A model generated the notes under the pieces. The model saw only the letters and a program-made list of their open reading frames with translations, did no database searches and had not been told where the DNA came from. A stretch of 64,000 nt of DNA, taken from the IMG/VR virus record IMGVR_UViG_3300032296_003714, positions 32,001 through 96,000 of that record; one strand, given 5' to 3'. Source of the DNA: a virus. The position numbers were made by a program, and so were the translations under genes. Below are positions 3,862-19,514 of the stretch, piece by piece (the stretch's first letter is position 1; each line of letters begins with the position of its first letter).

Positions 3862-4642
3862 TACCTAATAGTTTAATTATGTCTTTTTTAGACATTCCTT
3901 GTTTCTCCGCTTGTCTCATCAGAGAGTTAATTTGTTTTTTTATAATACTACTAACTTTATTCTCTTTACTACCCACCTCTGAATTATCATCTGATTTTTT
4001 ATTAACAATAATATCTTCCAACACTTTAATAGCTTTTTGTCTTTGTAATTCTTCAATTCTTTCTTTTTCTTGAAGTCTTATTCTCATATCAGCCCCTTGC
4101 TTTTTCTTTTTATCAAGTTTTGGAACTTTTCCCATTTCTTCGGCTCTACCTACGGGGTCGTCAACACCCATCTTCTTAAGTTTTTTTATAGTTTCTTTCG
4201 GTGGTAAATCTTTTGTTTCCTCGTATCCAAATGCCTTGGACATATCTTCTTCACCAAAATAACTTCTATATGAATAACCTCTTCTGAATATATCACTAGG
4301 TTGAACAGCCATAGCAATAGTTTGGTCCATAGTTTTTCTTGGGTGCATTTTTGGGTCTAAAATAGGTATCTTTGAATTCATCAAACTTCCGTCTCCATCA
4401 ACCAACTCATCGATTTCAGATTTCATTTGTTTTGTAGACTTTTTCTTTTTTACCTTCAAAACTTTTTCCAAGTATTTTTCTATCTTGTCCAACTTATCTT
4501 TTGGAATTTTAACTACCTCATCTTTTTTTCTCGCTTCAGTCAACGTATCCTCACAAGAAAAATAAAGTGAATAATCATTTTTATTTTCTTTCAAGAAAAA
4601 ATAGTAAGAGTTATAAAAAAATTCTTTATCTAAAGTAATCAT
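3854..4642 (-). CDS. Hypothetical lysine-rich protein
   Basis: 262-aa ORF, first gene of the minus-strand unit; minus-strand TATTTATA lies 10 nt upstream. Confidence 0.7.
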   Translation of the reverse strand: MITLDKEFFYNSYYFFLKENKNDYSLYFSCEDTLTEARKKDEVVKIPKDKLDKIEKYLEKVLKVKKKKSTKQMKSEIDELVDGDGSLMNSKIPILDPKMHPRKTMDQTIAMAVQPSDIFRRGYSYRSYFGEEDMSKAFGYEETKDLPPKETIKKLKKMGVDDPVGRAEEMGKVPKLDKKKKQGADMRIRLQEKERIEELQRQKAIKVLEDIIVNKKSDDNSEVGSKENKVSSIIKKQINSLMRQAEKQGMSKKDIIKLLGSE

Positions 4643-4653
4643 CTTTTTTTACT

Positions 4654-4680
4654 ATAAATACTTCAACAAAAGGTATTTAT
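4654..4680. promoter_or_regulatory. Back-to-back divergent TATTTAT promoter-like elements
   Basis: Inverted repeat ATAAATAC-N11-GTATTTAT in the 49-bp gap between divergent genes. Confidence 0.6.
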
Positions 4681-4691
4681 TCTATTAGATT

Positions 4692-6722
4692 ATGTCATAT
4701 CAAAATATAAATCAATATGTGTTTAGAAGGTTATACCTAAAACCACTTAGGGAAATAACTGATATATCGTTAGCCTCAGATGAAAAAGATTATGACCAAG
4801 AGGTTATTTTCTCTCCACTATTGATAGGTGAAGATGATGGTAATAGAATGCCATTAAGGTTTGATTTCAATAGTTCAGGTACAACAGATTGTGTTAATTG
4901 TGGTGATTTTGATAAAGATACAGTAGTTTCTGAAAATTATTGGAACCCTTTAGATTTAGATTTAATAAATTGTGGAACAATAACTGAAATATGTGATGTT
5001 GGATTGACAGGTATCGATAACGGTCTCGTTAAAGCTTTTTCGGGTGAAACAATAGAATTAAATAGTGGATTATATACCTCACGTGCAGATAGATTCTCAA
5101 GATACAAATACGATAGAAGATTTAAAATGCACCCGATTACAGGGTTTACCACGTCATCAGATAGAATATTAGATGATGATTCATACACATATGAAGTAAG
5201 TTTTGATAATGATTCTAATGTTATTGGAGATTATATAAAATTTAATGGGGGATTTTATCAAGGTTTTTATAAGTCATTCGGATATGATTATCAGGTATTA
5301 CCTGAAAGGTATAATTTAGGTTGGACTTCAGAGTTCATGTTGAGATATAGATGGACAGGAGATACTGACACGGGTTTGAATGCAAGATATCCAAATAACA
5401 AGGGAACATTTTTTTATTATGGTGCTAGAGCGGAAAACAAGTTTTACCATTATGCCGATGGCTCTCCATTGAGTGATAGTGGGTATACAAGGGTTACACA
5501 AGGGTTAAATTGTTTGGAAACTTGTGGTTGTTCTTATACTGCAAATACTGCATCAACGTGTAACTATGTTTACCAACAATCAGGTGTAACGTCACAAAAT
5601 TGTAGTTGCGGTCAATGCCCTTGTAACTGTACTACGTTTGCTTTAATGCCGGAAAAAGACCCTAAATGGGATGAGGTTTCTAATGCCATGTCTTTGAGGT
5701 TGAGTGGGGATACAGGTAGTCCTAAACTTTGTGTTAAAACATATAGAATAACTGGTGATTGTGAAACAACCGGAACTTGTGCCACAGGTTTAACATACAC
5801 AACAGGAACAAGTGTAACTGAATGGTGTTCTACAAGGGGTATTTTTGATGACTGTTCTGGTAGTACATATTCAGAAACTGAAAGGTGGGTACAAATAGAT
5901 GCGGTCTTTCAAAGAAACACCTATTTAGATGATTGTGATTTACTATATAAAGGAGGTTTGGGTGAACTTGTAAAGACAGTATATACCGCCAGCTCAGCTA
6001 ATAATAGTGTTAGCTTAATACAGCCACCTATAACCCAAGAAATAGATTATGACCCAGCAACTGTCGAGGTTGTGGAAATGAATGAAAGATGGTTAGAAGA
6101 AAAAAATTATAGATTAGGAACTCTCAAGTTTTATGTTAATGGTAAATTGTTCTTGGTAGTAAATGGGTTTGAAGAAATTATACCAAGACCTTTAAATACT
6201 CTCAGAGAAACTCAAATAGGGGTTGCATATAACATATCATTAGGAGGAGGTACTCAAGGGTTACATGATAATTTAACTGTAACAGATTGTGCAACGACAT
6301 TGACAGGAATGACTTATCAACAAGACCCTGAATGTTTGCCAACTGAGGTTTTGGATGAAACATCTTACTCAGGTCTAACAACAAATATAAAACTTGAAGA
6401 GTACTTTGGGGGTAGCTTTTATGGTGACATTAGTGCTTTCAGGATGTATACAGAGCCGTTAAATGGAGCTCAGATAAGACATAATTTCAAATTATTAAAA
6501 GATAAATATTCATTATTAGACCCGTTCTGTTTGAAATGTGACACTCCAATAATTCCAATACCAACAACCCCCACTCCCACACCGACTCAAACAAGTACAA
6601 CAACCCCCACTCCCACACCGACTCAAACACCAACTCCTAGTTTTGTAGATAATAATTTCTTATTACAAGAAAATTTAGACTATTTATTACAAGAGGACGG
6701 AAATAAAATTATTATAACATAA
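4692..6722 (+). CDS. Cys-rich virion structural protein with LamG/ConA-like elements and a C-terminal Thr/Pro linker
   Basis: WVQIDAVF, LKFYVNGKL, FYGDISAFRMYTEPLNGAQIRHNF (LamG-type C-terminus); C-terminal PTTPTPTPTQT repeats. Confidence 0.55.
   Translation: MSYQNINQYVFRRLYLKPLREITDISLASDEKDYDQEVIFSPLLIGEDDGNRMPLRFDFNSSGTTDCVNCGDFDKDTVVSENYWNPLDLDLINCGTITEICDVGLTGIDNGLVKAFSGETIELNSGLYTSRADRFSRYKYDRRFKMHPITGFTTSSDRILDDDSYTYEVSFDNDSNVIGDYIKFNGGFYQGFYKSFGYDYQVLPERYNLGWTSEFMLRYRWTGDTDTGLNARYPNNKGTFFYYGARAENKFYHYADGSPLSDSGYTRVTQGLNCLETCGCSYTANTASTCNYVYQQSGVTSQNCSCGQCPCNCTTFALMPEKDPKWDEVSNAMSLRLSGDTGSPKLCVKTYRITGDCETTGTCATGLTYTTGTSVTEWCSTRGIFDDCSGSTYSETERWVQIDAVFQRNTYLDDCDLLYKGGLGELVKTVYTASSANNSVSLIQPPITQEIDYDPATVEVVEMNERWLEEKNYRLGTLKFYVNGKLFLVVNGFEEIIPRPLNTLRETQIGVAYNISLGGGTQGLHDNLTVTDCATTLTGMTYQQDPECLPTEVLDETSYSGLTTNIKLEEYFGGSFYGDISAFRMYTEPLNGAQIRHNFKLLKDKYSLLDPFCLKCDTPIIPIPTTPTPTPTQTSTTTPTPTPTQTPTPSFVDNNFLLQENLDYLLQEDGNKIIIT
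6564..6629 (+). repeat. 36-bp-period coding tandem repeat (TTPTPTPTQT)
   Basis: acaacccccactcccacaccgactcaaaca occurs at 6564 and 6600. Confidence 0.85.
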
Positions 6723-6728
6723 AAGAAC

Positions 6729-8675
6729 ATGCCCAATTTACCCATATCTCAACTACCGTTAGCGGTTTCAGGACAACCTGATTCTTTGATGGTAATCGTA
6801 AATCACGATATTGTACCAACAGGTATAACCAATTCAATTTATTTCTCCGCACTGACTCAACAACTTTCAGGAAGTTCAGGAAGTTCAGGAACAAGCGGTA
6901 CGTCTGGTAGTTCAGGGACAGATGGTAGTTCAGGGACAGATGGTAGTTCAGGGACAGATGGAAGTTCAGGAACTAGTGGAATTTCAGGAATAGACGCGGC
7001 GGCGACGTTACGATGGATATTACAAGATACTTCAGGAGGAAATCCTTCATCTGCCACATATTTTACTTCCTGTTGCAATTCTGGTTTATTGAACACAGGG
7101 AGTTTCAAGTTCGCATATGGAAGTACAACCGTTCCATCTGAAGGATTTTGGGACACCATTAACAATGGGACTAATCCTTATTTACAAATTGTTAAGGTTG
7201 GTGACTCAAACGTAATTGGATTGTATGAAATTTCCTCCGTAAGTTATTCCGACCCAGGAAATGGGGGTCAATATAATGTTACTTGTGTTGGTATACCAGC
7301 AATTTATGCTTCAGGTCTTTGGGGTTTAGGCGATACGTATGCTGTATCTTTTATTCTCAATGGTACTTCTGGTAGTTCGGGGTCTAGTGGAACGAGTGGT
7401 TCTTCAGGAAGCTCTGGAACTGATGGTAGTTCTGGTTCTAGTGGAACGAGTGGTTCTTCAGGAAGCTCTGGAACTAATGGTAGTTCTGGTTCTAGCGGAA
7501 CAAGTGGGTCATCAGGAAGTTCTGGTACTGATGGTAGTTCAGGTTCAAGCGGAACGAGCGGTTCTTCGGGGACATCAGGTTTTTCAGGCGACTTATATAG
7601 AACAACTTCATCAACTCTTCTTACAATCCAAACGGGTATCACAGGTACTTTCGTAATTGGTACTAATTTGGGATATAGTGTGGCACAAGATGTGATAATA
7701 GCATATGATTTATCAAATCACATGATTGGTATGGTTGTAAGTTATAATCCTGTTAATGGTGACATGGTTGTTAATGTTCAAACTATTACTGGTTCGGGTT
7801 CATATTCTTCTTGGTTAGTTAATTTGGCAGGCGCTGCAGGAGGTGATGGAAGTTCAGGGACTAGTGGAAGTAGTGGTTCATCGGGTATCTCGGGCTCATC
7901 AGGAACAAGTGGTTCTAGTGGAAGTTCGGGAACCGATGGTAGTTCTGGTTCATCAGGAAGCTCAGGTTCAAGTGGGTCTTCTGGAACTTCAGGCAGTAGT
8001 GGTAGCTCAGGAACATCTGGTAGTTCAGGTTCCAGTGGTACTGATGGTTCTTCTGGTAGTTCTGGCTCGAGTGGTTCTTCAGGTTCATCAGGAAGTAGCG
8101 GTAGTTCAGGAACATCTGGTAGTTCAGGTACAAGTGGTACATCACCAGTATTACCTCTTCCTGTTGTTTTCGGATTATTTGCACAAACAGGAAATAGTGT
8201 AACAGTAAGCGGAACAACAACTGAATCAACTCTTATTGATGGTGGTATTGGAACATTAAGTGTACCTGCAAGTGGTTTCACTGTCGGTGATAGTTTTAGA
8301 GCGGATATGGCTGGCGTATTAAATGTTGGTAATAACCAAACCATAAGAATAAGAGTTAAATCGGGTTCAGTTATTTTGCTTGATAGTGGTGCTCAGGCAA
8401 TAACAAATATCACCGAAGACATTTGGGGTCTTTCGATAAACTTCACTGTAAGACAGGTTGGGCCTGCGGGAGTCGCTTCTATTGTTTCTTTAGGTGCGTT
8501 CCATTATACAAAAACCACTAATGGAACCGTGGAAGGTTTTTCATTCAACACGGTCAATAACACAACATTTGATACTACAGTGAGTAATACATTAGATATT
8601 ACTGTGGAGTGGGGAAGTACAAGTGCGTCAAATAGTATTTATTCTGACATATTTGTATTAAATAAGATTTATTAA
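6729..8675 (+). CDS. Fibre-like virion protein with three Gly-X-X (GSS/GTS/GTD) repeat blocks
   Basis: N-terminal ISQLP motif; Gly at every third residue in blocks at about 6867-6990, 7362-7589 and 7830-8144, separated by beta-rich domains. Confidence 0.65.
   Translation: MPNLPISQLPLAVSGQPDSLMVIVNHDIVPTGITNSIYFSALTQQLSGSSGSSGTSGTSGSSGTDGSSGTDGSSGTDGSSGTSGISGIDAAATLRWILQDTSGGNPSSATYFTSCCNSGLLNTGSFKFAYGSTTVPSEGFWDTINNGTNPYLQIVKVGDSNVIGLYEISSVSYSDPGNGGQYNVTCVGIPAIYASGLWGLGDTYAVSFILNGTSGSSGSSGTSGSSGSSGTDGSSGSSGTSGSSGSSGTNGSSGSSGTSGSSGSSGTDGSSGSSGTSGSSGTSGFSGDLYRTTSSTLLTIQTGITGTFVIGTNLGYSVAQDVIIAYDLSNHMIGMVVSYNPVNGDMVVNVQTITGSGSYSSWLVNLAGAAGGDGSSGTSGSSGSSGISGSSGTSGSSGSSGTDGSSGSSGSSGSSGSSGTSGSSGSSGTSGSSGSSGTDGSSGSSGSSGSSGSSGSSGSSGTSGSSGTSGTSPVLPLPVVFGLFAQTGNSVTVSGTTTESTLIDGGIGTLSVPASGFTVGDSFRADMAGVLNVGNNQTIRIRVKSGSVILLDSGAQAITNITEDIWGLSINFTVRQVGPAGVASIVSLGAFHYTKTTNGTVEGFSFNTVNNTTFDTTVSNTLDITVEWGSTSASNSIYSDIFVLNKIY
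6905..6970 (+). repeat. 18-bp coding tandem repeat (GSSGTD)
   Basis: tggtagttcagggacaga x3 plus a partial copy. Confidence 0.9.
7383..7560 (+). repeat. 54-bp coding tandem repeat (SSGTSGSSGSSGTDGSSG)
   Basis: Near-identical copies at 7383 and 7437; diverged copy at 7491. Confidence 0.85.
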
Positions 8676-8704
8676 AAATAAAACAATATTTATAAATAAA
8701 AAAA

Positions 8705-9676
8705 ATGAACTGCAAGCAATACACACTAACTAACACAACATCTGGTAATTTATATTTTAATTACACAAGATGTGATGATAATATTTTTGAAAGTCAGGTT
8801 TTATTAGAACCAGGAGAAACAAAAAAAATATGGTTAATAACAAATTCATATTCATCTGCATTTGTTACTGGAATCCAAGTTGTCGATAACGGAGCTTTTC
8901 CTGCAACACCGGCAGTAACTCCAACTCCAAGTAGCACACCTAACCCAACTCCTACCATTACACCAACCATAACTCCAACTAATAGTGTAACACCAACCAT
9001 GACTCCAACTAATACTGTAACACCAACATTAACTTCAACACCAACTGTAACACCAACATTAACTTCAACACCAACTGTAACACCAACTCAATCAAGGTAT
9101 CAATTTGCCGCGTATTTCGGCTCAACTCCAGTTCAAGCTTGTGAATTATTTAGTGCTGTTACAATTTATGGTGATTCTGAATTATTTGATAATAATAGCC
9201 AATTCTACAATAATGTCTCAGGACCTGTAACAATAGACATGTCAGGTTATTATAGTTACGATAATCAGGTAACTGAAATTAGTTCTAATGGTACCCAAGT
9301 CGGCTCATTTGATAGCTGTACGGTACTTCCAACAAGAACTCCAACACCAACCGTAACTTCGACCCCGACAGCAACAGTAACACCAACCGTAACATCGACT
9401 CCAACTCCAACCCCAACAAGAAGTATGTGGGTGTATTCTTTAGGTTATGATGCAAATTCAGCATCAACAGCATGTAGTGACTATTCATCAAGTCCAATAA
9501 CTGTTTACGCACCTCTTGAAGGTGGTCCTGGACCTAACATCGGTGAAACATTGTATTCTGATTCAGGATTAACTACTCCTGTTTCTGATGGATATTATTC
9601 AAATGGAATTGCATGGTATCAAGTTACTGGTGGTTCTGGTGAAGTAACATCTTCTGACCCTAACGGTTGTGCATAA
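8705..9676 (+). CDS. Mucin-like Thr/Pro-rich protein with a duplicated Cys-containing domain (probable virion decoration or fibre protein)
   Basis: Two TPTVTPT-type linkers; two related domains (..AC......GYYS....G....C); TATTTAT upstream and a terminator downstream. Confidence 0.6.
9014..9087 (+). repeat. 30-bp coding tandem repeat ([10 protein letters not shown])
   Basis: actgtaacaccaacattaacttcaacacca x2 plus a partial copy. Confidence 0.85.
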
Positions 9677-9698
9677 CAAAAAAAAAATAAAAAAATAT

Positions 9699-9733
9699 AA
9701 ACCCTCTACTTTCGTGGAGGGTTTTTTATTTTT
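9699..9733 (+). terminator. Intrinsic terminator
   Basis: AAACCCTCTAC-TTTC-GTGGAGGGTTT followed by a T-tract. Confidence 0.8.
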
Positions 9734-9751
9734 TAAACAAAATAATATTTC

Positions 9752-11020
9752 ATGAGCAAAATTTTTATTCAAATTGCTTCCTATAGAGACCCTCAGTTGG
9801 TTAACACTATAAAGGATATGATGGCAAATGCAAAAAAACCTGAAAATTTAGTTTTGGGTATTGCGAGACAATTTTCAGAAACAGATGGGTTTGACAACCT
9901 AGATGAATGGAGAGATGATAAAAGATTTAGAATTCTTGATGTCCCTTATCAAGAAGCGAAAGGGGTATGTTGGGCAAGACATTTAGTTCAACAACTTTAT
10001 AAAGGGGAAAAATATACAATGCAAATTGATTCTCACATGAGGTTTGAAAAAAACTGGGATGAGACATTAATTAAAATGATAAAGGGTCTACAAAAGGATG
10101 GGTATAAGAAACCTCTACTTACGGGTTATGTACCCTCCTTTGACCCTGATAATGACCCAGCAGGAAGAGCACAAGATGCTTGGAGAATGACTTTTGATAG
10201 ATTTATTCCTGAGGGTGCAGTTTTCTTTTTACCTGAAACAATACCAGGGTGGAGAGAGATGAAAAAACCCGTAACCGCAAGATTTTATTCGGCCCACTTC
10301 TGTTTTACTTTGGGTGAGTTTTCAACAGAAGTACAGCACAATCCTGAATATTATTTCCATGGTGAAGAAATTTCCATCGCAGCAAGAGCATATACTTGGG
10401 GTTATGATTTATTTCATCCACATATTCCTGTTGTATATCATGAGTATACTCGTAAAGGTAGAACAAAGCAATGGGACGATGATAAGGAATGGGTTAAAAA
10501 GAATCAACATTCACACTTGATGAATAGAAAGTTGTTTGGTATGGATGGTGAAAAACAAGAAGGTCATGATGGTGAATTTGGATTTGGCCCTGTCAGAAGT
10601 CTGAGAGATTATGAAAAATACGCGGGTCTGTTGTTTGAAAGACGCTCAGTACAAAAGTATACGTTGGATAAAAATTACCCACCAAATCCGTACAACTACG
10701 ATTCTGAAGAGGAATGGATGGAAGATTTTACTAATATCTTCAAACATTGTATTGATATCAGCTATTCTCAAGTACCTGAAACAGATTATGATTTTTGGGT
10801 AGTTGCGTTCCACAATGATAAAGATGAAACTATTTTTAGAAAAGATGCGGATAAAAATGAAATTGCGGGTTATATGAGAGACCCTGATAAATATTGTAAA
10901 GTATGGAGAGAGTTTCCAACCAAAGAGTTACCAAAGTATTGGGTTGTTTGGCCACACTCAGAATCTAAAGGATGGTGTGATAGAATTACAGGTCAATTAA
11001 ACCATAGTGTTGTTAGTTAA
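9752..11020 (+). CDS. GT60-type polypeptide alpha-GlcNAc transferase (Skp1-hydroxyproline/Thr GlcNAc-T family)
   Basis: IFIQIASYRDP, EAKGVCWAR, LYKGEKYTMQIDSHMRF (DSH motif), FHGEE, ARAYTWGYD, VVYHEY. Confidence 0.85.
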   Translation: MSKIFIQIASYRDPQLVNTIKDMMANAKKPENLVLGIARQFSETDGFDNLDEWRDDKRFRILDVPYQEAKGVCWARHLVQQLYKGEKYTMQIDSHMRFEKNWDETLIKMIKGLQKDGYKKPLLTGYVPSFDPDNDPAGRAQDAWRMTFDRFIPEGAVFFLPETIPGWREMKKPVTARFYSAHFCFTLGEFSTEVQHNPEYYFHGEEISIAARAYTWGYDLFHPHIPVVYHEYTRKGRTKQWDDDKEWVKKNQHSHLMNRKLFGMDGEKQEGHDGEFGFGPVRSLRDYEKYAGLLFERRSVQKYTLDKNYPPNPYNYDSEEEWMEDFTNIFKHCIDISYSQVPETDYDFWVVAFHNDKDETIFRKDADKNEIAGYMRDPDKYCKVWREFPTKELPKYWVVWPHSESKGWCDRITGQLNHSVVS

Positions 11021-11458
11021 ATGGTATTCATATCACATAGAGGAAATATTGACGGAAAAAATGAAGTAAGAGAAAATTCTCCATATTACGTTATAGAGGC
11101 TCTTGCCATGGGATATGATGTGGAAGTTGATGTTTGGTTTGTTGATGGTGAATTTTGGTTGGGTCATGACGGACCACAATATAAAACTGATTATAAATTT
11201 TTAGTCAATGAAAAATTGTGGTGTCACGCAAAAAATATTGAAGCTTTAATGGAAATGAAAAAATATGTCATTCATTATTTTTGGCACGAAAATGACACCG
11301 TAACTCTAACATCTAAAAATTATGTATGGGCTTATCCGACTAAAGATTTTCCCAACAATACAATTGCCGTCTTACCTGAAATGTTCAATTCTGAAATAAA
11401 TCAATGTAAAGGAGTGTGTTCTGATTTCATAAAAGAATATAAAGAAAAGTATGATTAA
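11021..11458 (+). CDS. Short GDPD/PLC-like phosphodiesterase
   Basis: ISHRGN, ENSP, GYDVEVDVW, LGHD, WCHAKN, GVCSD. Confidence 0.75.
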   Translation: MVFISHRGNIDGKNEVRENSPYYVIEALAMGYDVEVDVWFVDGEFWLGHDGPQYKTDYKFLVNEKLWCHAKNIEALMEMKKYVIHYFWHENDTVTLTSKNYVWAYPTKDFPNNTIAVLPEMFNSEINQCKGVCSDFIKEYKEKYD

Positions 11459-12827
11459 GTTAATTATTTTTGATTTGGATGGAGTTTTAGTAGAGGCAAA
11501 AAAAATTCACTATGATTGTTTGAATCAAGCTCTCGAAGAAGAAGGAGAACAGTATGTTATAGGATGGGACGAGCATTTAAGTATTTATGATGGATTAAAG
11601 ACAAACCAAAAACTAGAATTACTTTCTAACAACAAAGGTCTTCCCGTTAATTCGTATAAAAGAATATGGGAAAAAAAACAAATTCTTACATTAGAATCAC
11701 TGAATAAATTAAATCCAACAGAGCACATAAGAAACTGTATAAGTAGTTTATCTAAAGAAGGATATAAGATTGTTTGTTGTTCAAATAGTATTAGGAAAAC
11801 TGTATTAACGGTTTTAAGTAAACTAGATATAATTCAATATTTTGATTTGATTTTATCAAATGAAGATGTGAAAAACAGCAAACCTCATCCTGAAATATAT
11901 TGGAATGCAATTTCTCACATGTCTTGTTTTCCAGATGAAACACTAATTATTGAAGATTCACCTTATGGTTTGTTAGCCGCAAGTAGGAGTAATTCTATGG
12001 TATATCGTGTTAATTCTCCTAGTGACATAACATATGATAATATAAAGAATCAAATAAATTTTATTACTAAAAACAGTAAGATGGTTAAACATAAGTGGTC
12101 TGACAAAACATTAAATGTACTTGTCCCGATGGCGGGTGCTGGAAGCAGATTTGAAAAAATGGGATATACTTTTCCAAAACCTTTGATTGATGTTATGGGA
12201 AAACCCATGATTCAAGTTGTGGTTGAAAACCTTAATATAGATGCCAATTTCATTTATATTGTACAAAAATCTCATAGAGAAAAATATAATTTAGATACTC
12301 TATTAAATCTTATAACACCAAATTGTAAAATTGTGGAAGTAGATGGATTAACTGAAGGTTCAGCTTGCACAACACTATTAGCCAAAGACTTAATTAATAA
12401 TGATAGTCCATTGATATCAATGAATTCTGACCAATTTATTGAATGGGATTCAAGTGAATTTATGTATAAAATGAACGAGTCCAACTGCGATGCAGGTATT
12501 TTAACATTCAAAGCAACCCACCCTAAATGGTCATTTGTTAAAATAAATGATTTGGGTTATGTAACCGAAGTTGCAGAAAAAAAACCAATTTCTGATATTG
12601 CAACTGTTGGGATTTATTTTTGGAGAAGGGGGTCTGATTATGTAAAATATGCGGAACAAATGATTTTAAAAAATATTAGAGTTAACAATGAATTCTACAT
12701 TTGTCCGGTTTTTAATGAGGCAATTTTAGATAATAAAAAAATAAAAATATTCGATGTTGATAAAATGTGGGGTATCGGTACCCCTGAAGATTTGAATTAT
12801 TTTTTAGAAAATTACATAACTATATAA
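11451..12827 (+). CDS. HAD phosphatase fused to a sugar-phosphate nucleotidyltransferase
   Basis: N-terminal FDLDGVL, CSNS, KPHPEIY, IIEDS; C-terminal VPMAGAGSRF...PKPLIDV, EVAEKK, NNEFYICP, GIGTPEDL. Confidence 0.85.
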   Translation: MIKLIIFDLDGVLVEAKKIHYDCLNQALEEEGEQYVIGWDEHLSIYDGLKTNQKLELLSNNKGLPVNSYKRIWEKKQILTLESLNKLNPTEHIRNCISSLSKEGYKIVCCSNSIRKTVLTVLSKLDIIQYFDLILSNEDVKNSKPHPEIYWNAISHMSCFPDETLIIEDSPYGLLAASRSNSMVYRVNSPSDITYDNIKNQINFITKNSKMVKHKWSDKTLNVLVPMAGAGSRFEKMGYTFPKPLIDVMGKPMIQVVVENLNIDANFIYIVQKSHREKYNLDTLLNLITPNCKIVEVDGLTEGSACTTLLAKDLINNDSPLISMNSDQFIEWDSSEFMYKMNESNCDAGILTFKATHPKWSFVKINDLGYVTEVAEKKPISDIATVGIYFWRRGSDYVKYAEQMILKNIRVNNEFYICPVFNEAILDNKKIKIFDVDKMWGIGTPEDLNYFLENYITI

Positions 12828-12828
12828 A

Positions 12829-13677
12829 ATGAATAATAACTTTTGTTTTCTGGTTTATACTAACGAAACGTATCTCCCAATTGCTAATCTATCCATGTCA
12901 GAATTTGATAGATTTAATCCCAATTTCCCTATAAAAAGATATTTGGTTTCAAATAAAATAGGCGATTTTGAATTTAAAGCACAAAATACAACTTTAATAG
13001 ATTGTGATATTCCGTTTGATGGTTCAGGAAATCACTTTTCTAAAACAATGATGAAAGCCATCTCTAATATTAGTGAGGAGTATATTATATTTTTCTGTGA
13101 TGACTATTTGCCAATAGGCGGAACTAAATGGAATTTATTGTCAGAATTAATTGATATGATAAAAAATGAAGATATAGACTTCATATCTTTTTCATACATG
13201 CCCCAAGCAAAGCAATGGAAAAAATTTCATGCAACGCTTCCTTCAGCACCAGATAAGAATTTATATTATATTCCGGATAACTACATGTATCTGTACAGCG
13301 TCCAGCCATGTATTTGGAAAAAATCTTCATTGTTAGATATCTTATCTCATAATCCAGAAATGTCCTTACATCATTTTGATACAACAAATTTAAAAAATAG
13401 GGAAGGATTTGTTAGAACTATGGATGTTCATACTTCGACATGGAATCCATACCCACAAGGCTCACAAACCTATGGATTTAAATGTTTAAGTACGGATTAT
13501 GGTGGATTTGATGAACAAGAAAATTATGATTGTTTTATATTTCCTTACGTTGAGATAGTAAGACATGGGTTTTTTAATATGTGGAGAGAAACAAATACCA
13601 AAATATTTTTAGAAAAATATATTGTTGATAATAACATTGATGCTGATGAGCGTTTAAAAAGATTTATATACAAATAA
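12829..13677 (+). CDS. Putative GT-A fold glycosyltransferase
   Basis: YIIFFCDDY acidic motif after a beta strand; SVQPCIWKK; glycan-locus context. Confidence 0.5.
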   Translation: MNNNFCFLVYTNETYLPIANLSMSEFDRFNPNFPIKRYLVSNKIGDFEFKAQNTTLIDCDIPFDGSGNHFSKTMMKAISNISEEYIIFFCDDYLPIGGTKWNLLSELIDMIKNEDIDFISFSYMPQAKQWKKFHATLPSAPDKNLYYIPDNYMYLYSVQPCIWKKSSLLDILSHNPEMSLHHFDTTNLKNREGFVRTMDVHTSTWNPYPQGSQTYGFKCLSTDYGGFDEQENYDCFIFPYVEIVRHGFFNMWRETNTKIFLEKYIVDNNIDADERLKRFIYK

Positions 13678-13693
13678 AAATCCACACCATTTT

Positions 13694-14551
13694 ATGAATA
13701 TTGAAGTAATGTTTGAAAAACCACATACTTTGTGGAATGTTGTGTGGGTTTTTGAAAAATTTTTTCACTGGTTTAAAGAAAATTACCCTGAACATAATAT
13801 TACTTTTAAAAATAGTGACCCAGATAAGAGAGGAAATCCATGTAGTCCGTATTCACCTCATGTGATGGTTATAAGAAATTTAGATAATTTAAAATATATC
13901 ATAGTTTCATATTGGGATAGGGCATACGAACTTACATGGCCAGGTTGCGGATGGGATATTGAAAATAGAGTTGAAATAATAACATCTTCAGGTGTCCATT
14001 CCCCAATGGACTTTACACCCTTTTCTTATCTTTGTTATTCAAAGGATTTCGAACAAATTGCGAGTGTTGAAAGAATTCCTTTTGATAAAAAAGAAAAAAA
14101 TTATTTATTTTTTAGAGGGTATCTGTATCATCATAGAAAAATAATGCAAAACCATTTTCCTGAATATTTTACCGAAGAAAGAAAAGTCTCTTTCGATTTA
14201 TTCAAAGAATTTAATGAGAATAAGATTAATCTTAGTATTGATGGTGCAGCTGAAATTTGTCATAGGGATATTGAGATTCTTTCATCTGGTTCTGTTTTAT
14301 TAAGACCTGAGTTAAATCAAATTTTTCATGACCCATTAATTCCTGATTATCATTATATAAGTGTTCCAAAAAGTAATGACCCGGTAACACAATTTAAATT
14401 ATTATTAGAAAAGTACGAAGAAGTTAAAAATAACGATGAATTATTATCCACAATATCAAACAATGGATATGAATGGTATGAAAGAAATGGAACTGTAAAA
14501 TCAAATGTTGATATTTTAAAAAAAATTATAAATTTAGGTAAATTAGAATAA
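13694..14551 (+). CDS. Putative GT-B glycosyltransferase (GT47/GT90-like C-terminal domain)
   Basis: FFRG...INLSIDGAAEICHRDIEILSSG...LIPDYHYISV...ISNNGYEWY. Confidence 0.6.
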   Translation: MNIEVMFEKPHTLWNVVWVFEKFFHWFKENYPEHNITFKNSDPDKRGNPCSPYSPHVMVIRNLDNLKYIIVSYWDRAYELTWPGCGWDIENRVEIITSSGVHSPMDFTPFSYLCYSKDFEQIASVERIPFDKKEKNYLFFRGYLYHHRKIMQNHFPEYFTEERKVSFDLFKEFNENKINLSIDGAAEICHRDIEILSSGSVLLRPELNQIFHDPLIPDYHYISVPKSNDPVTQFKLLLEKYEEVKNNDELLSTISNNGYEWYERNGTVKSNVDILKKIINLGKLE

Positions 14552-14554
14552 ATT

Positions 14555-15946
14555 ATGAATGAAGTTGTTAAATATTGGGATGGGAATCTTATATTACGCC
14601 ACATCGGTAAAGAGTTAAATTGGTTATTTAGTTATCTCGATGATAAAAAAATTGAATCTGTTTCTTTCATTGATATTGGAGGTAATGTTGGAAAATTTTA
14701 TGATGAGGTTTCAAAAAAATATAATATAAAGAAGTGTGTTATTGTTGAACCTTCTAAAGTTTTATATGACTATATGTCTAATAAATTTGAAAACAACGAT
14801 TCTGTAGAAATACACAATTTTGCAATTTCAGATAAAAATGGAAGTTTTCAATTTTACGATAGTGCAAGTATGTTTGTTGACATATTTGAAAAAGAAGAAA
14901 TAAACGATTCAATAAACTTAGGATTGTCTAAGTTGTCTCATGATGTACCTGGTGATACTATGTGTTATAGTATGGATTTCTTTATGAGAGAAATTTGTAA
15001 CATACAACCTAATGAAATAGATTTTATAAAAATTGACACAGAAAATTCTGATTTACAAATTATTAAAAGCATGACGAATTTTTTTGTGGAGAATAAAATT
15101 CGACCTCTAATTCTTTTTGAGAATAACTATCATAACTCTATTAGTGAAACTGAAGCTTTGGCTATTATAAATAATTTTTGTAATTTATGTGGGTATGAAA
15201 AGATTGATTTATCAATACCAGGTGACAATATCCTAATTCCGCTAAAAAAAGAAAAAACTAATAATTTAACTGAAGTTTATAGAATATTACAAAGTTTTAA
15301 AATCGATAAAAAATTTTGGAGATATCAAAACTTAACGGGTGAGGATTATGATATTAGAAGGTCTAAACCGGCACCATACATTAAAACCGCAATTGAAATT
15401 GCTAAAGCGTTAGACTTAAAAAATGTTGTTGAAATTGGTTCTTCAAGATATTCAGTAACTGACCCATGTTTGAAATATTTTGATTTGTCTAATAATGCCT
15501 TTTTGTCTCCACCTTGTTGTTGTGACGGACATGGAGGCTTTTTTTGGTCAAGAGCGGGGTTTGAAGTTTATACTGTAGATATTGACGAAAATTGTAAAAA
15601 TGGGGTCTTGTGGTCTTATGGTAATCTTAATATTCCGGTTCCTGAAAATCTACATGTTGAAATACCTAGAGATGGGATTGAGTTCTTACAATCTTTTGAT
15701 AAAACTATAGACGTTTTATTCTTAGATGGTTGGGATATCGGTACTCCTGAATATGCTGAAAAACATTTAGAGGCGTATTTGGCTGCTGAAAATAAATTAT
15801 CTTCAACCCATTTAGTCTTAATCGATGATACTGATTACATTACCCAAGATGGAGGTAAAGATAAACTATTATCTCCTTATCTAATTGATAAGGGATATAT
15901 TCCATTATTTAATGGAAGGCAAACATTATACATGAAATATGAGTAA
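14555..15946 (+). CDS. Double methyltransferase: FkbM-family domain fused to a second class I SAM-MTase domain
   Basis: FIDIGGNVG, VEP, NFAISD, FIKIDTEN (FkbM); then VVEIGS, YTVDID, DVLFLDG, LIDD. Confidence 0.8.
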   Translation: MNEVVKYWDGNLILRHIGKELNWLFSYLDDKKIESVSFIDIGGNVGKFYDEVSKKYNIKKCVIVEPSKVLYDYMSNKFENNDSVEIHNFAISDKNGSFQFYDSASMFVDIFEKEEINDSINLGLSKLSHDVPGDTMCYSMDFFMREICNIQPNEIDFIKIDTENSDLQIIKSMTNFFVENKIRPLILFENNYHNSISETEALAIINNFCNLCGYEKIDLSIPGDNILIPLKKEKTNNLTEVYRILQSFKIDKKFWRYQNLTGEDYDIRRSKPAPYIKTAIEIAKALDLKNVVEIGSSRYSVTDPCLKYFDLSNNAFLSPPCCCDGHGGFFWSRAGFEVYTVDIDENCKNGVLWSYGNLNIPVPENLHVEIPRDGIEFLQSFDKTIDVLFLDGWDIGTPEYAEKHLEAYLAAENKLSSTHLVLIDDTDYITQDGGKDKLLSPYLIDKGYIPLFNGRQTLYMKYE

Positions 15947-16691
15947 AGTAGTTATAAGTCTTACGACAATACCAAACAGATTAAATCCTGATAGACCAGG
16001 TTATGGATTAAAGCCTGCACTAGATAGATTAACAACATTATCTTATGGTGATTATGAAGTTCATTTGAATATACCATTTGTGAATAATAAATCTGGTGAA
16101 TATTATACAATACCTAATTGGTTACAGGAATATAATTCGGACAAATTAAAAATTTTTAGAACTGAAGATTATGGTTCAATAACAAAACTGATTCCTACTG
16201 TTGATAGGTTATCTGACCCTAATGATATAATAATAACAGTTGATGATGACTTGAATTATATGGATGGTTTCATTGAATATCATTTAGAAAAAAGGAAACA
16301 ATACCCTGACGCTGCAATTGGTTTTGCGGGTATAGGCTCAATTGGGGGGACCTGCCATTTTTGTACCACAGTAAAAGATGATGTTAGAGTTAAAATTTTA
16401 GAAGGATATAAAACTGTATCATATAAAAAAGGTTTTTTTGGTTCGGATTTTAAAGATTTTGCAATAGGAAATTGGAATGATGATATGATTATATCTGCAT
16501 ACTTAGGTAAAAATTACATCCAAAAAATGGTTGTTGCTTACGATAAAGACACTGATTATTCTCCAAGAGTTGAGTCATTTCCTGTCATTGGACATCTGCC
16601 AAATGAAAGAGGTGGCTGTTGGTGGTTTAGAAATGAGTCTGTACCTGACAATCATCAGATATACTATAAATTAGGATTTTTAGAAAGATAA
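15939..16691 (+). CDS. GT-A fold glycosyltransferase (GT2-like)
   Basis: VISLTTIPNR, DYGSITKLIP, IIITVDDD, NDDMIISAY. Confidence 0.7.
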   Translation: MSKVVISLTTIPNRLNPDRPGYGLKPALDRLTTLSYGDYEVHLNIPFVNNKSGEYYTIPNWLQEYNSDKLKIFRTEDYGSITKLIPTVDRLSDPNDIIITVDDDLNYMDGFIEYHLEKRKQYPDAAIGFAGIGSIGGTCHFCTTVKDDVRVKILEGYKTVSYKKGFFGSDFKDFAIGNWNDDMIISAYLGKNYIQKMVVAYDKDTDYSPRVESFPVIGHLPNERGGCWWFRNESVPDNHQIYYKLGFLER

Positions 16692-16692
16692 T

Positions 16693-18363
16693 ATGGAAAA
16701 AGTTACTTTAGTCACAGGTTTATGGAATATTGGTAGGGATAACCTATCAGAGGGATGGTCTAGGTCATTCCAACATTATTTAGATAGATTTGATAGATTA
16801 TTGGATGTTGACGCCAATATGATAATATTTGGAGACGAGGAGTTAGAATCATTTGTCTTCAAAAAAAGAACTAATGAGAATACACAATTCATACTTAGAC
16901 CTACAAGCTGGTTTGTTCACAATGAATTCTATGATAAGATTCAAGAAATTAGGACTAAAGAATCTTGGTATAATCAAGTAGGTTGGCTCAAGGATTCAAC
17001 ACAGGCTAAGTTAGGAATGTATAACCCCTTGGTTATGTCTAAAATGTTTTTATTACATGATGCAAAAATTTTAGATAGGTTTAATTCTGATTATATGTTT
17101 TGGATTGATGCTGGTCTTGCAAACACAGTTCATCCAGGATATTTTACACACGATAAAGTTTTAGATAAATTACCAAAATATATTTCTAAATTTTCATTTG
17201 TTTGTTTTCCATATGAGACTTCTGTTGAAATACATGGTTTTGAATATTCAAAATTAAAATCTATAGCAAATTCCGATGTTAAAAAAGTTGCGAGAGGCGG
17301 ATTCTTCGGAGGTCCAAAAAGTACGATATCTGAGATAAATTCAATTTATTATTCATTGATGAAATCAACATTGTATGATGGATACATGGGTACTGAAGAG
17401 TCACTATTCAGTATTATGTGTTATAAACATGCTGATGTTGTGAATTATTTTGAAATAGATGGTAATGGATTAATGGGTAAGTTTTTTGAGGATTTGAAAA
17501 ACGATAAGTTGGTCGTAAAATCAGAGTCTTCTATTAATAATTCACACGTATTAGATTTATCAAAAACATCCTTGTACGTTATAGGTTTTAATAGTCCAAA
17601 ACAATTTAAGACACTTATTGAGTCTATGTTATCTTATGATAAAAACTTTATAGAAAAACCAAAAAAATATTTATTAGATAATTCTACTGATTTGTCAACT
17701 ACTGAGGAATACTCGGTAATTTGTAAAGAGTTTGGTTTTGAACATATTAAGAAAGATAATTTAGGTATTTGTGGTGGTAGACAATTTATTGCAGAACATT
17801 TTGAAGAAAGTGATTCTGACTTTATGTTTTTCTTTGAAGATGATATGTTTTTCTATCCTAAGGATGGTGTATGTAGAAATGGATTCAATAGATATGTTCC
17901 TGACCTGTATCAAAAATCATTAGAGATTGTGAGAAAAGAAGGTTTTGATTTTTTAAAATTAAATTATAGTGAATTTTTTGGCGATAATGGCACACAGTGG
18001 ACATGGTATAATGTACCACAACATTTGAGAGAAGAGTTTTGGCCCGAAAAACCCAAACTACCTGAAAGCGGATTAGACCCAAATGCACCTAAAGTTAAGT
18101 ACGGAAAAATAATTTCACACAAAGGAGTTCCATATTCTAATGGTGAAATATATTATTGTAACTGGCCACAAATTGTTTCTAAATTAGGTAATAAAAAAAT
18201 GTTTTTAGATACAACATGGGCACATCCGTTTGAACAAACTTGGATGAGTCATATGTATCAACTGACAAAAAAAGGTGAATTAAATCCAGGAATTTTATTA
18301 CTTACACCAACAGAACACAATAGATTTGAACATTACGGTCCAGGGTTGCGTAAAGAATCATAA
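16693..18363 (+). CDS. HtrL/WlaTC-like glycosyltransferase fused to a second GT-A domain
   Basis: TLVTGLWNIGR, YNPLVMSK, FWIDAG, GGFFGG, GTEE; second domain LLDNS, NLGICGGRQ, FFFEDD. Confidence 0.7.
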   Translation: MEKVTLVTGLWNIGRDNLSEGWSRSFQHYLDRFDRLLDVDANMIIFGDEELESFVFKKRTNENTQFILRPTSWFVHNEFYDKIQEIRTKESWYNQVGWLKDSTQAKLGMYNPLVMSKMFLLHDAKILDRFNSDYMFWIDAGLANTVHPGYFTHDKVLDKLPKYISKFSFVCFPYETSVEIHGFEYSKLKSIANSDVKKVARGGFFGGPKSTISEINSIYYSLMKSTLYDGYMGTEESLFSIMCYKHADVVNYFEIDGNGLMGKFFEDLKNDKLVVKSESSINNSHVLDLSKTSLYVIGFNSPKQFKTLIESMLSYDKNFIEKPKKYLLDNSTDLSTTEEYSVICKEFGFEHIKKDNLGICGGRQFIAEHFEESDSDFMFFFEDDMFFYPKDGVCRNGFNRYVPDLYQKSLEIVRKEGFDFLKLNYSEFFGDNGTQWTWYNVPQHLREEFWPEKPKLPESGLDPNAPKVKYGKIISHKGVPYSNGEIYYCNWPQIVSKLGNKKMFLDTTWAHPFEQTWMSHMYQLTKKGELNPGILLLTPTEHNRFEHYGPGLRKES

Positions 18364-18379
18364 CAATATATTTATTGTT

Positions 18380-18757: not shown

Positions 18758-18781
18758 TTTAATTTCATTTATATTTAAAAA

Positions 18782-19444: not shown

Positions 19445-19458
19445 TTTTTATATTTATC

Positions 19459-19503
19459 AGAGAAGGTAAATTTCACATTTTGTGAAAGCTAATAGACCAC
19501 TCT
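19459..19503 (+). promoter_or_regulatory. Candidate structured 5' leader RNA of the DNA polymerase gene
   Basis: Inner stem TTTCACA/TGTGAAA; outer pairings GGT/ACC and AGAG/CTCT; lies between TATTTAT (19451) and the ATG (19515). Confidence 0.4.
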
Positions 19504-19514
19504 AAAAATATATT

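What the first reader, a model, noticed from the sequence alone, without database searches (positions are those of the whole stretch)
8705..11020. GT60 enzyme encoded immediately after a protein with PTVT repeats
Seen: 8705-9676 contains several PTVT/PTIT/PTLT units, and the next gene has the GT60 signature (ASYRD, DSH, GEE) plus an extra ~90-aa C-terminal domain (FKHCIDI...WVVWPHS). Known: in Dictyostelium the PTVT repeats of PsA are O-GlcNAc-glycosylated in a modB (GT60)-dependent manner, and Trypanosoma GT60s initiate mucin glycans on Thr. Inference: this is a direct enzyme-substrate gene pair resembling protist mucin glycosylation. No prolyl hydroxylase is present in this window, which favours Thr as the acceptor.
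Basis: partly seen in the sequence, partly recalled or inferred. Interest (0 to 1): 0.75.

Follow-up and report, generated by a model that had tools for sequence, protein, structure and literature searches.

The report
Phage GT60 sugar-transferase beside Pro-Thr-repeat proteins
An uncultured jumbo phage encodes a soluble relative of the enzymes that start mucin-type sugar chains, right after genes for proteins with proline-threonine linkers; the same enzyme sits next to such tracts in many bacteria, so the phage probably sugar-coats its own proteins, though no sugar has been measured here.

Summary
ORF 8705-9676 has 16 PTxT units (1.2 expected by shuffling) in two disordered linkers joining three small folded modules. 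ORF 9752-11020 is a clear PF11397/GT60 protein with ASYRD, DSH and GEE motifs and a conserved folded C-terminal domain.

The enzyme-substrate reading is partly supported.
- For: a PT-tract gene lies directly upstream in 61 of 63 relatives. In 80 bacterial GT60 loci an exact (PT)5 pattern occurs 13 times (about 0.06 expected), on unrelated proteins including T6SS VgrG spikes. The catalytic domain matches mucin-type ppGalNAc-transferases best (Z 22). Xanthomonas phage XacN1, which has a 46%-identical homologue, has PAS-stained virion glycoproteins.
- Against a simple 'pair': a terminator conserved in 79 of 79 relatives separates the two genes. PT tracts occur in several other genes of complete relatives. 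The partner that stays with GT60 is an HtrL_YibB-like protein, with a swappable sugar-gene island between them.
- The 'no prolyl hydroxylase' argument holds only for the window: the contig has a PF13640 oxygenase upstream.

No biochemistry exists, and donor and acceptor residue are inferred. This scan has noted the same GT60/Thr-Pro system on many other phage and bacterial DNAs. I found no paper describing it.

The parts
4692..6722 (+). 676-aa protein with a C-terminal PT tract (residues about 617-652, nt about 6540-6647) followed by a short conserved tail. Likely a second acceptor.
   Evidence: ORF. PT tract. 6 PTxT units. Homologues 47-93% identical upstream of GT60 in relatives. No Pfam or PHROG family.
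6729..8675 (+). Collagen-like (Gly-Ser/Thr-Ser repeat) tail-fibre-type protein. It marks this block as virion and fibre genes.
   Evidence: PF01391 Collagen E=2.4e-30. PHROG tail fibre families E about 1e-31. 18/27/54-bp DNA repeats. No PTxT units.
8705..9676 (+). 323-aa beads-on-a-string protein: three small folded Cys-pair modules (residues 1-64, 132-192, 241-318) joined by two disordered PT linkers (nt about 8903-9088 and 9326-9424). Proposed acceptor.
   Evidence: 16 PTxT against 1.2 expected. AlphaFold2 modules at pLDDT 80-90, linkers below 50. The same modules are shuffled and duplicated in relatives, whose proteins run 200-920 aa. No known fold, best Z 5.1.
9699..9734 (+). Intrinsic-terminator-like hairpin (11-bp stem, 4-nt loop) plus T-run between the PT gene and GT60.
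   Evidence: Best terminator-like site in 4400-19600. Folds at -20.6 kcal/mol. A hairpin plus T-run is present upstream of GT60 in 79 of 79 relatives.
9752..11020 (+). Soluble GT60 (PF11397) glycosyltransferase: GT-A catalytic domain (residues 1 to about 310) plus a conserved beta-rich C-terminal domain (residues about 326-415, nt about 10727-10996). Proposed initiating polypeptide glycosyltransferase.
   Evidence: No N-terminal hydrophobic segment; the first beta-strand starts at residue 4.
11021..11458 (+). 145-aa protein of phrog_34507 (function unknown); first gene of the strain-specific island.
   Evidence: phrog_34507 E=8e-30. No Pfam hit. Absent from the 80 relatives.
11451..12827 (+). 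HAD phosphatase/mutase-type domain fused to a sugar-phosphate nucleotidyltransferase domain. Probably makes an activated sugar donor.
   Evidence: PF13419 E=1e-30 and PF00483 E=5.8e-12. Absent from the 80 relatives.
12829..14551 (+). Two genes of unknown function (282 aa and 285 aa) in the island.
   Evidence: ORFs. No family at E up to 1. The 285-aa product was found in 1 of 80 relatives.
14555..15946 (+). FkbM-type methyltransferase with an extra C-terminal region.
   Evidence: PF05050 E=6e-10, phrog_8156 E=5e-16. Found in 1 of 80 relatives.
15939..16691 (+). 250-aa protein of unknown function; last gene of the variable island.
   Evidence: ORF. No family.
16693..18363 (+). 556-aa HtrL_YibB-like protein (domain at residues 3-255 plus about 300 further residues). 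It is the conserved partner of GT60.
   Evidence: PF09612 E=5e-18, TIGR02192 E=1.3e-20 but below its cut-off. Within 6 kb downstream of GT60 in 74 of 75 relatives. 42% identical in XacN1 and Xoo-sp13. Next to GT60 in 35 of 80 bacterial loci.

Best explanation
The gene at 9752-11020 encodes a soluble, cytoplasmic GT60-family glycosyltransferase. During infection it most likely attaches a first sugar, probably an N-acetylhexosamine, to threonine hydroxyls in the Pro-Thr linkers of phage proteins. Those proteins are made from the neighbouring late genes: the 323-aa modular protein at 8705-9676 and the C-terminal tract of the 676-aa protein at 4692-6722, and probably further PT-tract proteins elsewhere in the full genome. 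The conserved HtrL_YibB-like protein (16693-18363) and the strain-specific island between them (a nucleotide-sugar-forming HAD/nucleotidyltransferase fusion, an FkbM methyltransferase and four unknowns) would extend and cap the chain, giving this phage lineage its own glycan.

Shown: family membership, fold, conserved catalytic residues, gene order and its conservation, and the statistical link between GT60 genes and PT tracts.

Inferred: that protein is the acceptor, that Thr is the residue, that the donor is a UDP-HexNAc, and that the products are virion parts.
For: 1. Family and fold. PF11397 at 224 bits. Invariant D93, H95, E205, E206 and H230. High-confidence GT-A model. The 29 best structural matches are all polypeptide GalNAc-transferases: Z 19-22, rmsd about 3.6 A over about 275 residues. 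The next group, polysaccharide and teichoic-acid GTs, scores Z 18 or less.

2. Phage synteny. A PT tract lies within 1.5 kb upstream in 61 of 63 evaluable IMG/VR relatives. In the 107-kb contig the only two true PT-tract ORFs lie within 5 kb upstream of GT60. In a complete 321-kb relative, 34 of 71 PTxTPTxT matches fall in the two genes next to GT60.

3. Independent bacterial evidence. An exact (PT)5 coding pattern occurs in 13 of 80 GT60 loci (1.01 Mb). The background is about 57 loci in about 1 Gb of 300 Pseudomonadota genomes, so about 0.06 would be expected. In Ralstonia, Achromobacter and Paraherbaspirillum, the only or nearly only (PT)5 locus of the genome lies 1-4 kb from GT60.

4. The carrier proteins are unrelated to each other. 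They include T6SS VgrG spikes with Pro/Ser/Thr-repeat tails, LamG, BNR/fn3 and T9SS-sorted proteins, small leader-plus-PT proteins in same-strand cassettes with HtrL and GT60, and PqqD-PT fusions. This is what a tract-modifying enzyme predicts.

5. Experiment in a relative. XacN1 encodes a 45.7%-identical homologue, ORF334, and many PTxT tracts. Its virions contain at least two PAS-stained glycoprotein bands, which the authors attribute to its two glycosyltransferases (PMC5852040).
Against: - No transfer, glycan or modified residue has been measured for this enzyme or any prokaryotic or phage GT60 that I could find.
- The two genes are separated by a conserved terminator, so adjacency is not operon membership.
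- The close relatives are 83-90% identical, so their synteny is inherited and is not independent evidence.
- Most GT60-bearing Pseudomonadota sampled (28 of 34) have no strict (PT)5 tract anywhere. In XacN1 and Xoo-sp13 the gene upstream of GT60 is not a PT protein.
- HtrL_YibB relatives are otherwise found in LPS/LOS loci (PMC4172580), which leaves a non-protein acceptor open.
- The PAS-positive XacN1 bands were not identified.
- PT linkers also occur in many proteins that are not known to be glycosylated.
Confidence: 0.55

Rival explanations
1. The same enzyme modifies the same PT tracts, but the acceptor is hydroxyproline. A phage P4H-type 2OG-Fe(II) oxygenase first hydroxylates prolines in the tracts, and GT60 then adds GlcNAc to Hyp, as Gnt1 does on Skp1.
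For: GT60 includes the strictly Hyp-specific Gnt1 (PMC6939170). The contig encodes a PF13640 oxygenase at G000:C1:4054-4302, and the complete relative has three. Prolines are as regular as threonines in the tracts.
Against: XacN1 has the GT60 homologue, many PTxT tracts and virion glycoproteins but no PF13640 match. The oxygenase gene is about 37 kb from GT60 and not linked to it. Some VgrG tails next to GT60 are Ser/Glu/Pro repeats, where the hydroxyl residue varies and Pro spacing differs.
Confidence: 0.1
2. GT60 glycosylates phage or host proteins other than the PT tracts, for example the Ser/Thr-rich collagen-like fibre, sheath or capsid. The PT linkers are plain flexible spacers whose position next to GT60 reflects inherited gene order in a virion-gene block.
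For: A conserved terminator separates the genes. PT tracts occur at several places far from GT60 in complete genomes. XacN1 and Xoo-sp13 have no PT gene next to GT60. The collagen-like fibre at 6729-8675 is extremely Ser/Thr-rich.
Against: This does not explain the more than 100-fold excess of PT tracts next to GT60 in unrelated bacteria on unrelated carrier proteins.
Confidence: 0.15
3. The cluster builds or alters a non-protein glycan, such as a lipid-linked oligosaccharide, host LPS or capsule, or a polysaccharide. GT60 here is not a polypeptide transferase.
For: HtrL_YibB proteins are uncharacterised members of LPS/LOS loci. Most relatives have a GT25 (LPS-type) gene after GT60. JGI labels some homologues 'glycosyltransferase involved in cell wall biosynthesis'. 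Lower-ranked fold matches include polysaccharide and teichoic-acid GTs.
Against: The best structural matches by a clear margin are peptide transferases. The characterised GT60 members named act on polypeptides. The enzyme lacks a membrane segment. The link with PT tracts and with T6SS VgrG tails is hard to explain this way.
Confidence: 0.12

Closest known systems
CAZy GT60 / Pfam PF11397 polypeptide alpha-GlcNAc-transferases of protists (Trypanosoma cruzi pp-alpha-GlcNAcT on mucin Thr; Dictyostelium and Toxoplasma Gnt1 on Skp1 hydroxyproline)
   Same: Same Pfam family at high score, with the conserved DSH and GEE motifs. Soluble like cytoplasmic Gnt1. Proposed to start a chain on Thr/Pro-rich repeats as in T. 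cruzi mucins (family properties from PMC6939170).
   Different: Encoded by a phage, with homologues in many bacteria. Carries a conserved beta-rich C-terminal domain outside the Pfam model. Paired with an HtrL_YibB-like protein. Activity, donor, linkage and acceptor are untested. Position relative to Gnt1 and TcOGNT in a tree was not determined.
Animal and Toxoplasma polypeptide GalNAc-transferases (GT27), initiators of mucin-type O-glycosylation
   Same: Closest solved structures of the catalytic domain: Z about 22, rmsd about 3.6 A, about 278 residues, 11-14% identity. Both have a catalytic GT-A domain followed by a C-terminal accessory domain, and GT27 acts on Thr/Ser in Pro-rich repeats.
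   Different: No sequence-level membership; Pfam finds only PF11397. The C-terminal domain was not aligned to the ricin-type lectin domain in most matches. No signal anchor, so it acts in the cytoplasm rather than the Golgi.
Glycosyltransferase cluster of Xanthomonas jumbo phage XacN1 (ORF334 and neighbours), also Xoo-sp13 and Stenotrophomonas phages CM1 and RAS14
   Same: Homologous GT60 with the C-terminal domain at 45-49% identity over 97-98% of its length. Homologous HtrL-like gene downstream at 42% identity. PolB nearby. Many PTxT-tract proteins in the genome. Virion glycoproteins seen by PAS staining.
   Different: In XacN1 the island holds a carbamoyltransferase and two unknowns, and no PT gene abuts GT60. 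The paper names ORF334 only as a glycosyltransferase family protein and does not link it to GT60 or to PT tracts.
Serine-rich-repeat adhesin glycosylation in Gram-positive bacteria (GtfA/GtfB O-GlcNAc initiation plus variable extending GTs beside the substrate gene); from my own knowledge, not tested here
   Same: It works alike: a cytoplasmic initiating transferase puts GlcNAc on a long hydroxy-amino-acid repeat of a protein encoded nearby, and strain-variable GTs then extend the chain.
   Different: Different enzyme family (GT4 against GT60), Ser-rich rather than Pro-Thr repeats, and a dedicated SecA2/Y2 export route. No homology claimed.
Mycobacteriophage virion glycosylation (Freeman et al. 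2023, cited in PMC12582341; the paper itself was not held)
   Same: Phage-encoded glycosyltransferases modify the phage's own virion proteins.
   Different: Hosts and phage types are unrelated. Whether its enzyme families or acceptor motifs resemble this system could not be checked here.

Membership tests
GT60 / Pfam PF11397 | Match to the family profile above the curated threshold | tested here: met
   224.1 bits against a cut-off of 21, E=4.7e-66. 188 bits in the six-frame genome search.
GT60 / Pfam PF11397 | GT-A fold with a D-x-H metal/nucleotide motif (DSH) and conserved acidic residues (GEE) | tested here: met
   DSH at 93-95 and GEE at 204-206. D93, H95, E205 and E206 are invariant in 30 relatives. 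GT-A model with pLDDT 94.6, Z 22 to GT-A peptide transferases.
GT60 / Pfam PF11397 | Transfers alpha-GlcNAc from UDP-GlcNAc to a hydroxyl of a polypeptide (Thr/Ser or Hyp) | not testable with these tools
   Only indirect evidence: the genomic link to PT tracts and PAS-positive virion proteins in XacN1.
GT60 / Pfam PF11397 | Phylogenetic placement with characterised members (Gnt1, TcOGNT, Dictyostelium Golgi enzyme) | not tested
   No named reference sequences could be obtained through the tools. There is no solved GT60 structure by sequence search.
GT27 polypeptide GalNAc-transferases | Sequence membership (GT2-type catalytic domain plus ricin B lectin domain) | tested here: not met
   Pfam finds only PF11397 and no Glycos_transf_2 or Ricin_B_lectin. 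PDB sequence search finds no GT27 chain at E up to 1. The similarity is structural only.
GT27 polypeptide GalNAc-transferases | C-terminal beta-trefoil lectin domain that reads earlier-added sugars | tested here: inconclusive
   Most structural alignments stop at model residue about 327-333; a few span to 388-414 with high rmsd. The C-terminal domain was not folded and searched alone. The Atlas search of residues 312-422 gave no usable hit.
HtrL_YibB (PF09612 / TIGR02192), for the partner gene at 16693-18363 | Match to the family profile above the curated threshold | tested here: inconclusive
   The Pfam threshold is met (66.1 bits against 24.1). The NCBIfam equivalog thresholds are not met (74 against 265 bits). 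It is a distant member with about 300 extra residues.

The most novel reading that the evidence does not exclude
GT60 plus the HtrL_YibB-like protein form the core of a widespread, undescribed prokaryotic and phage system for cytoplasmic mucin-type O-glycosylation of Pro-Thr/Ser tracts. Its clients would include parts of contractile injection machines made in the cytoplasm (jumbo-phage fibre and appendage proteins, and the repeat tails of T6SS VgrG spikes) and small leader-bearing PT proteins. In phages, the swappable gene island between the two conserved enzymes would give each lineage its own glycan coat, affecting adsorption, protease resistance or recognition.
Probability: 0.35. Interest if true: 0.8.

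Novelty: new variant of a known kind. Interest (0 to 1): 0.6.

Why it matters
Protein O-glycosylation started by a mucin-type (GT60/GT27-like) transferase is textbook biology for eukaryotes. It has not, as far as my searches show, been described for bacteria or their viruses.

If the reading is right, jumbo phages build a strain-specific glycan coat on flexible Pro-Thr stalks of their own proteins inside the host cytoplasm. The same enzyme pair would decorate T6SS spikes and other PT-tract proteins in many bacterial phyla. That would bear on phage adsorption and host range, on the stability and antigenicity of phage particles, and on the evolutionary origin of eukaryotic mucin-type glycosylation.

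The hypothesis is directly testable with two small genes of this window and with the cultured phage XacN1.

This window is one more instance of a system this scan has met often. What it adds:
- a rare donor-sugar/methyltransferase island;
- a clean quantitative control for the GT60-PT link;
- the T6SS VgrG link;
- the published PAS staining in XacN1.

Tried and rejected
- Megablast of the pair against the phage collection: no match.
Two single distant queries against viral contigs gave nothing or one locus.
- PDB sequence search for GT60: no relative.
- ESM Atlas search of the C-terminal domain: no usable hit.
- Fold search of the PT protein against 48,161 chains: best Z 5.1, generic small beta-sandwiches, not informative. 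BLASTP between its three modules found no relation.
- Literature searches for GT60 or PF11397 in phages or bacteria, and for VgrG glycosylation: nothing relevant. The Freeman 2023 paper was not held.
- The strict (PT)5 DNA pattern does not detect the window's own PTxT-type tracts, so it undercounts. The looser amino-acid criterion (34 of 80 bacterial loci) includes dubious P/S/T-rich frames in high-GC DNA and was not used for statistics.
- DNA glucosylation as the role of this GT: rejected. The fold is closest to peptide transferases, and the gene travels with PT tracts and T6SS genes in bacteria.
- Homology between the window's island genes and the genes between GT60 and HtrL in relatives or XacN1: none found.
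- The Tat-signal call for the small bacterial PT proteins is only sub-threshold (TIGR01409 14.0 against 16.7 bits).
Full report
**What the DNA is.** The window is bases 32001-96000 of a 107-kb IMG/VR viral contig judged 35% complete. It has about 32% G+C and encodes a tail sheath, a family B DNA polymerase, an SNF2 helicase and tape-measure-like proteins. It is therefore part of a jumbo myovirus of roughly 300 kb. Complete relatives of 317-321 kb exist in IMG/VR. The closest cultured relatives of the gene in question are Xanthomonas phages XacN1 and Xoo-sp13 and Stenotrophomonas phages CM1 and RAS14.

- ORF 8705-9676 (323 aa) has 16 overlapping PTxT units, against 1.24 expected from shuffles (maximum 7 in 10,000). 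They lie in two tracts, residues about 67-128 and 208-240.
- The first tract is a 30-bp tandem DNA repeat.
- AlphaFold2 with 35 homologues gives three confident small domains (pLDDT 80-90) joined by linkers with pLDDT below 50.
- In relatives the same three roughly 65-80-aa modules, each with a conserved Cys pair, are shuffled and duplicated between PT linkers. The resulting proteins run from 200 to 920 aa.
- No known fold or family was found for the modules.
- ORF 9752-11020 (422 aa) is an unambiguous PF11397 protein with the quoted motifs at residues 9, 93 and 204.
- Its extra C-terminal domain is conserved in 30 relatives of 37-48% identity and folds confidently (pLDDT 94.6, pTM 0.90).
- The protein starts directly with the first beta-strand and has no signal or membrane segment, so it should act in the cytoplasm.

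**What surrounds it.**
- Upstream on the same strand lie a 676-aa protein whose C-terminus is another PT tract, a collagen-like tail-fibre protein and the 323-aa protein.
- The strongest terminator-like hairpin of the region (9699-9724 plus a T-run) follows. A hairpin with a T-run is present at this position in 79 of 79 relatives.
- GT60 therefore starts a new transcription unit: a 145-aa protein of phrog_34507, a HAD/nucleotidyltransferase fusion, two unknowns, an FkbM methyltransferase, another unknown, and a 556-aa HtrL_YibB-like protein. PolB comes next.
- Across 80 IMG/VR relatives the backbone is PT gene, GT60, a variable stretch, HtrL-like, PolB. The HtrL-like gene is within 6 kb downstream in 74 of 75. 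The stretch is usually 1.6 kb, which in relative L020 holds a GT25 glycosyltransferase and one unknown.
- The window's 5.7-kb island is a rare expansion whose genes are almost absent from the relatives.
- XacN1 and Xoo-sp13 keep GT60 (45-49% identity) and the HtrL-like gene (42%), with a carbamoyltransferase and two unknowns between. They have no PT gene directly upstream.
- The long-term partner of GT60 is thus the HtrL-like protein, with swappable tailoring genes between the two.

**Is the PT tract the substrate?** Synteny among close relatives (61 of 63 with a PT tract within 1.5 kb upstream) is inherited and proves little. I therefore looked outside the clade.
- A profile of the family finds more than 550 loci in prokaryotic genomes, including finished chromosomes.
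- In the 80 best loci (35-69% identity, many phyla), an HtrL-like gene is adjacent in 35. A P/T/S-rich ORF lies within 7 kb in 34, many with long unambiguous (PT)n runs.
- With a strict DNA pattern for (PT)5, 13 of the 80 loci (1.01 Mb) match.
- In 300 other Pseudomonadota genomes (about 1 Gb), only 36 have any match, about 57 loci in all. About 0.06 matches would therefore be expected by chance.
- In Ralstonia sp. 25C, one of two (PT)5 loci in 6.0 Mb is about 1 kb from GT60. In an Achromobacter and in Paraherbaspirillum soli, the only such locus of the genome is 4 kb and 2.6 kb from GT60. In an Acidimicrobiaceae MAG, two of three loci flank GT60.
- Caveats: the background is from one phylum, while the 80 loci come from many. 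The enrichment would still be more than 20-fold if the true background were ten times denser.

**The PT-bearing proteins are unrelated to one another.**
- T6SS VgrG spikes in seven Burkholderiales loci, all ending in (PT)n, (TPEP)n, (PPTE)n, (PSEEP)n or (ASDEEP)n tails. In Ralstonia the GT60 gene sits inside the T6SS core cluster.
- LamG-, BNR/fn3- and T9SS-sorted proteins.
- Small proteins made of a twin-arginine-like leader and little else but PT repeats. They lie in tight same-strand cassettes with an HtrL-like gene and GT60 in Halieaceae, Vicinamibacterales and a deltaproteobacterium. The Tat call is sub-threshold.
- PqqD-domain proteins with PT-rich tails in Gemmatimonadota.
- A link to the tract rather than to a protein family is what a tract-modifying enzyme predicts.

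**Limits of the link.**
- Of 34 GT60-bearing genomes in the Pseudomonadota sample, only 6 have a strict (PT)5 tract anywhere. The link is strong but not universal, or the acceptors are often less regular. The window's own tract escapes the strict pattern.
- In a complete 321-kb relative, PTxTPTxT matches fall in about five gene clusters. 34 of 71 lie in the two genes next to GT60.
- XacN1 has such tracts in at least ten genes, none adjacent to GT60.
- The 323-aa protein is thus at most one of several clients.

**Structure.**
- Foldseek and the second-look aligner both rank polypeptide GalNAc-transferases (GT27; human T1, T2, T4, T7, T10, T12, Drosophila PGANT9, Toxoplasma T3) as the 29 best matches of the catalytic domain. 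Scores are Z 19-22, rmsd 3.5-4.0 A and about 270-280 residues.
- These lie ahead of polysaccharide, teichoic-acid and LPS-type GT-A enzymes at Z 18 or less.
- This favours a peptide acceptor but does not prove one.
- The C-terminal domain was not matched and remains of unknown role. By analogy with the lectin domain of GT27 it might bind the tract or earlier-added sugars, but this is speculation.

[quoted passage not shown] It also reports at least two virion glycoprotein bands by periodic acid-Schiff staining, which the authors suggest are made by the phage enzymes (PMC5852040, main text and Supplementary Fig. S4). ORF334 is the GT60 homologue. The bands were not identified.

**Thr or Hyp?** GT60 contains both a Thr-directed enzyme (T. 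cruzi) and the Hyp-specific Gnt1 (PMC6939170). The window lacks a prolyl hydroxylase. However, the contig has a PF13640 oxygenase upstream of the window, and the complete relative has three. XacN1 has none. Thr remains the better guess, but Hyp is not excluded.

**Relation to earlier notes of this scan.** After my own analysis I found that the scan has recorded the same GT60/Thr-Pro arrangement on many other phage contigs and some bacterial genomes, with similar conclusions from follow-up agents. These are not independent evidence. I did not find the T6SS VgrG link among those notes, nor any mention of the XacN1 PAS staining.

**Verdict.** The most likely reading (about 0.55) is a phage-encoded, cytoplasmic, mucin-type O-glycosylation system. 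GT60 would be the initiator, the HtrL-like protein a conserved second enzyme, and a strain-specific island would supply and tailor sugars. The PT linkers of the neighbouring fibre-block proteins would be among the acceptors. In print it would be a new variant of known kinds (GT60 enzymes; phage virion glycosylation). Within this scan it is a repeat sighting.

Noticed in passing
L148:6950-12131 (Ralstonia sp. 25C chromosome); also L135, L110, L152, L132, L155, L160: In Burkholderiales, a GT60 gene sits inside or beside a T6SS core cluster (TagJ, TssE, TssF, TssG, TssA, a fimbrial-like gene, GT60; convergent VgrG, TagF, TssM). The VgrG ends in a long Pro plus Ser/Thr(/Glu) repeat tail: about 70 PT units in Ralstonia, and (TPEP)n, (PPTE)n, (PSEEP)n or (ASDEEP)n elsewhere. 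This suggests glycosylated T6SS spike tails. I found no paper on this.
   Followed up: partly
L161:3831-8230; L120:3940-8215; L165:4790-8230; L116:1189-8242; L133: Same-strand cassettes with small or no gaps: small PT protein, HtrL-like gene, GT60 (with a further ~240-250-aa ORF between the PT gene and HtrL in L161 and L120). The PT proteins share a twin-arginine-like leader (RRxLLxALG ... WxKPxI) followed almost only by PT repeats. Two end in a hydrophobic anchor plus a basic tail. The Tat profile hits are below threshold.
   Followed up: partly
L100:6314-6955; L097:6215-6940; L102:6221-6874 (Gemmatimonadota MAGs): Proteins with an N-terminal PqqD domain (a peptide-chaperone / RiPP-recognition type; Pfam 32.5 and 26.9 bits against a cut-off of 23.4 for two of them, and 23.2 bits, just under the cut-off, for L102) and a PT-rich tail lie directly upstream of GT60 and the HtrL-like gene.
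   Followed up: partly
G000:C1:4054-4302 (same contig, about 28 kb upstream of the window start): A PF13640 (P4H-type 2OG-Fe(II) oxygenase) gene, E=1.2e-10. The complete relative G306 has three such genes and XacN1 has none.
   Followed up: partly
window 11021-16691: The island between GT60 and the HtrL-like gene (phrog_34507 protein, HAD/nucleotidyltransferase fusion, two unknowns, FkbM methyltransferase, one unknown) is nearly unique to this contig among 80 relatives. Most have about 1.6 kb there, which in relative L020 holds a GT25 glycosyltransferase and one unknown.
   Followed up: partly
P0242, P0243, P0244, P0251 (representative library); G153:C1:95717-99601; G033:C3:692689-695628: Giant proteins of 1,600-2,460 aa carry two to five tandem GT60 domains, in metagenomes and in two Pseudomonadota genomes.
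   Followed up: no
L089:5504-6649 (230-kb contig binned as a Saprospiraceae MAG): A Ser/Pro/Thr-repeat protein with a T9SS C-terminal sorting domain lies next to a GT60 and HtrL pair that is 63-68% identical to the phage's. The contig may be a misbinned jumbo phage, or it may hint at a Bacteroidota host.
   Followed up: no
window 6729-8675: The collagen-like tail-fibre protein has three Gly-Ser/Thr-Ser arrays built from 18-, 27-, 54- and 99-bp DNA repeats. It is very Ser/Thr-rich but has no PTxT units.
   Followed up: no
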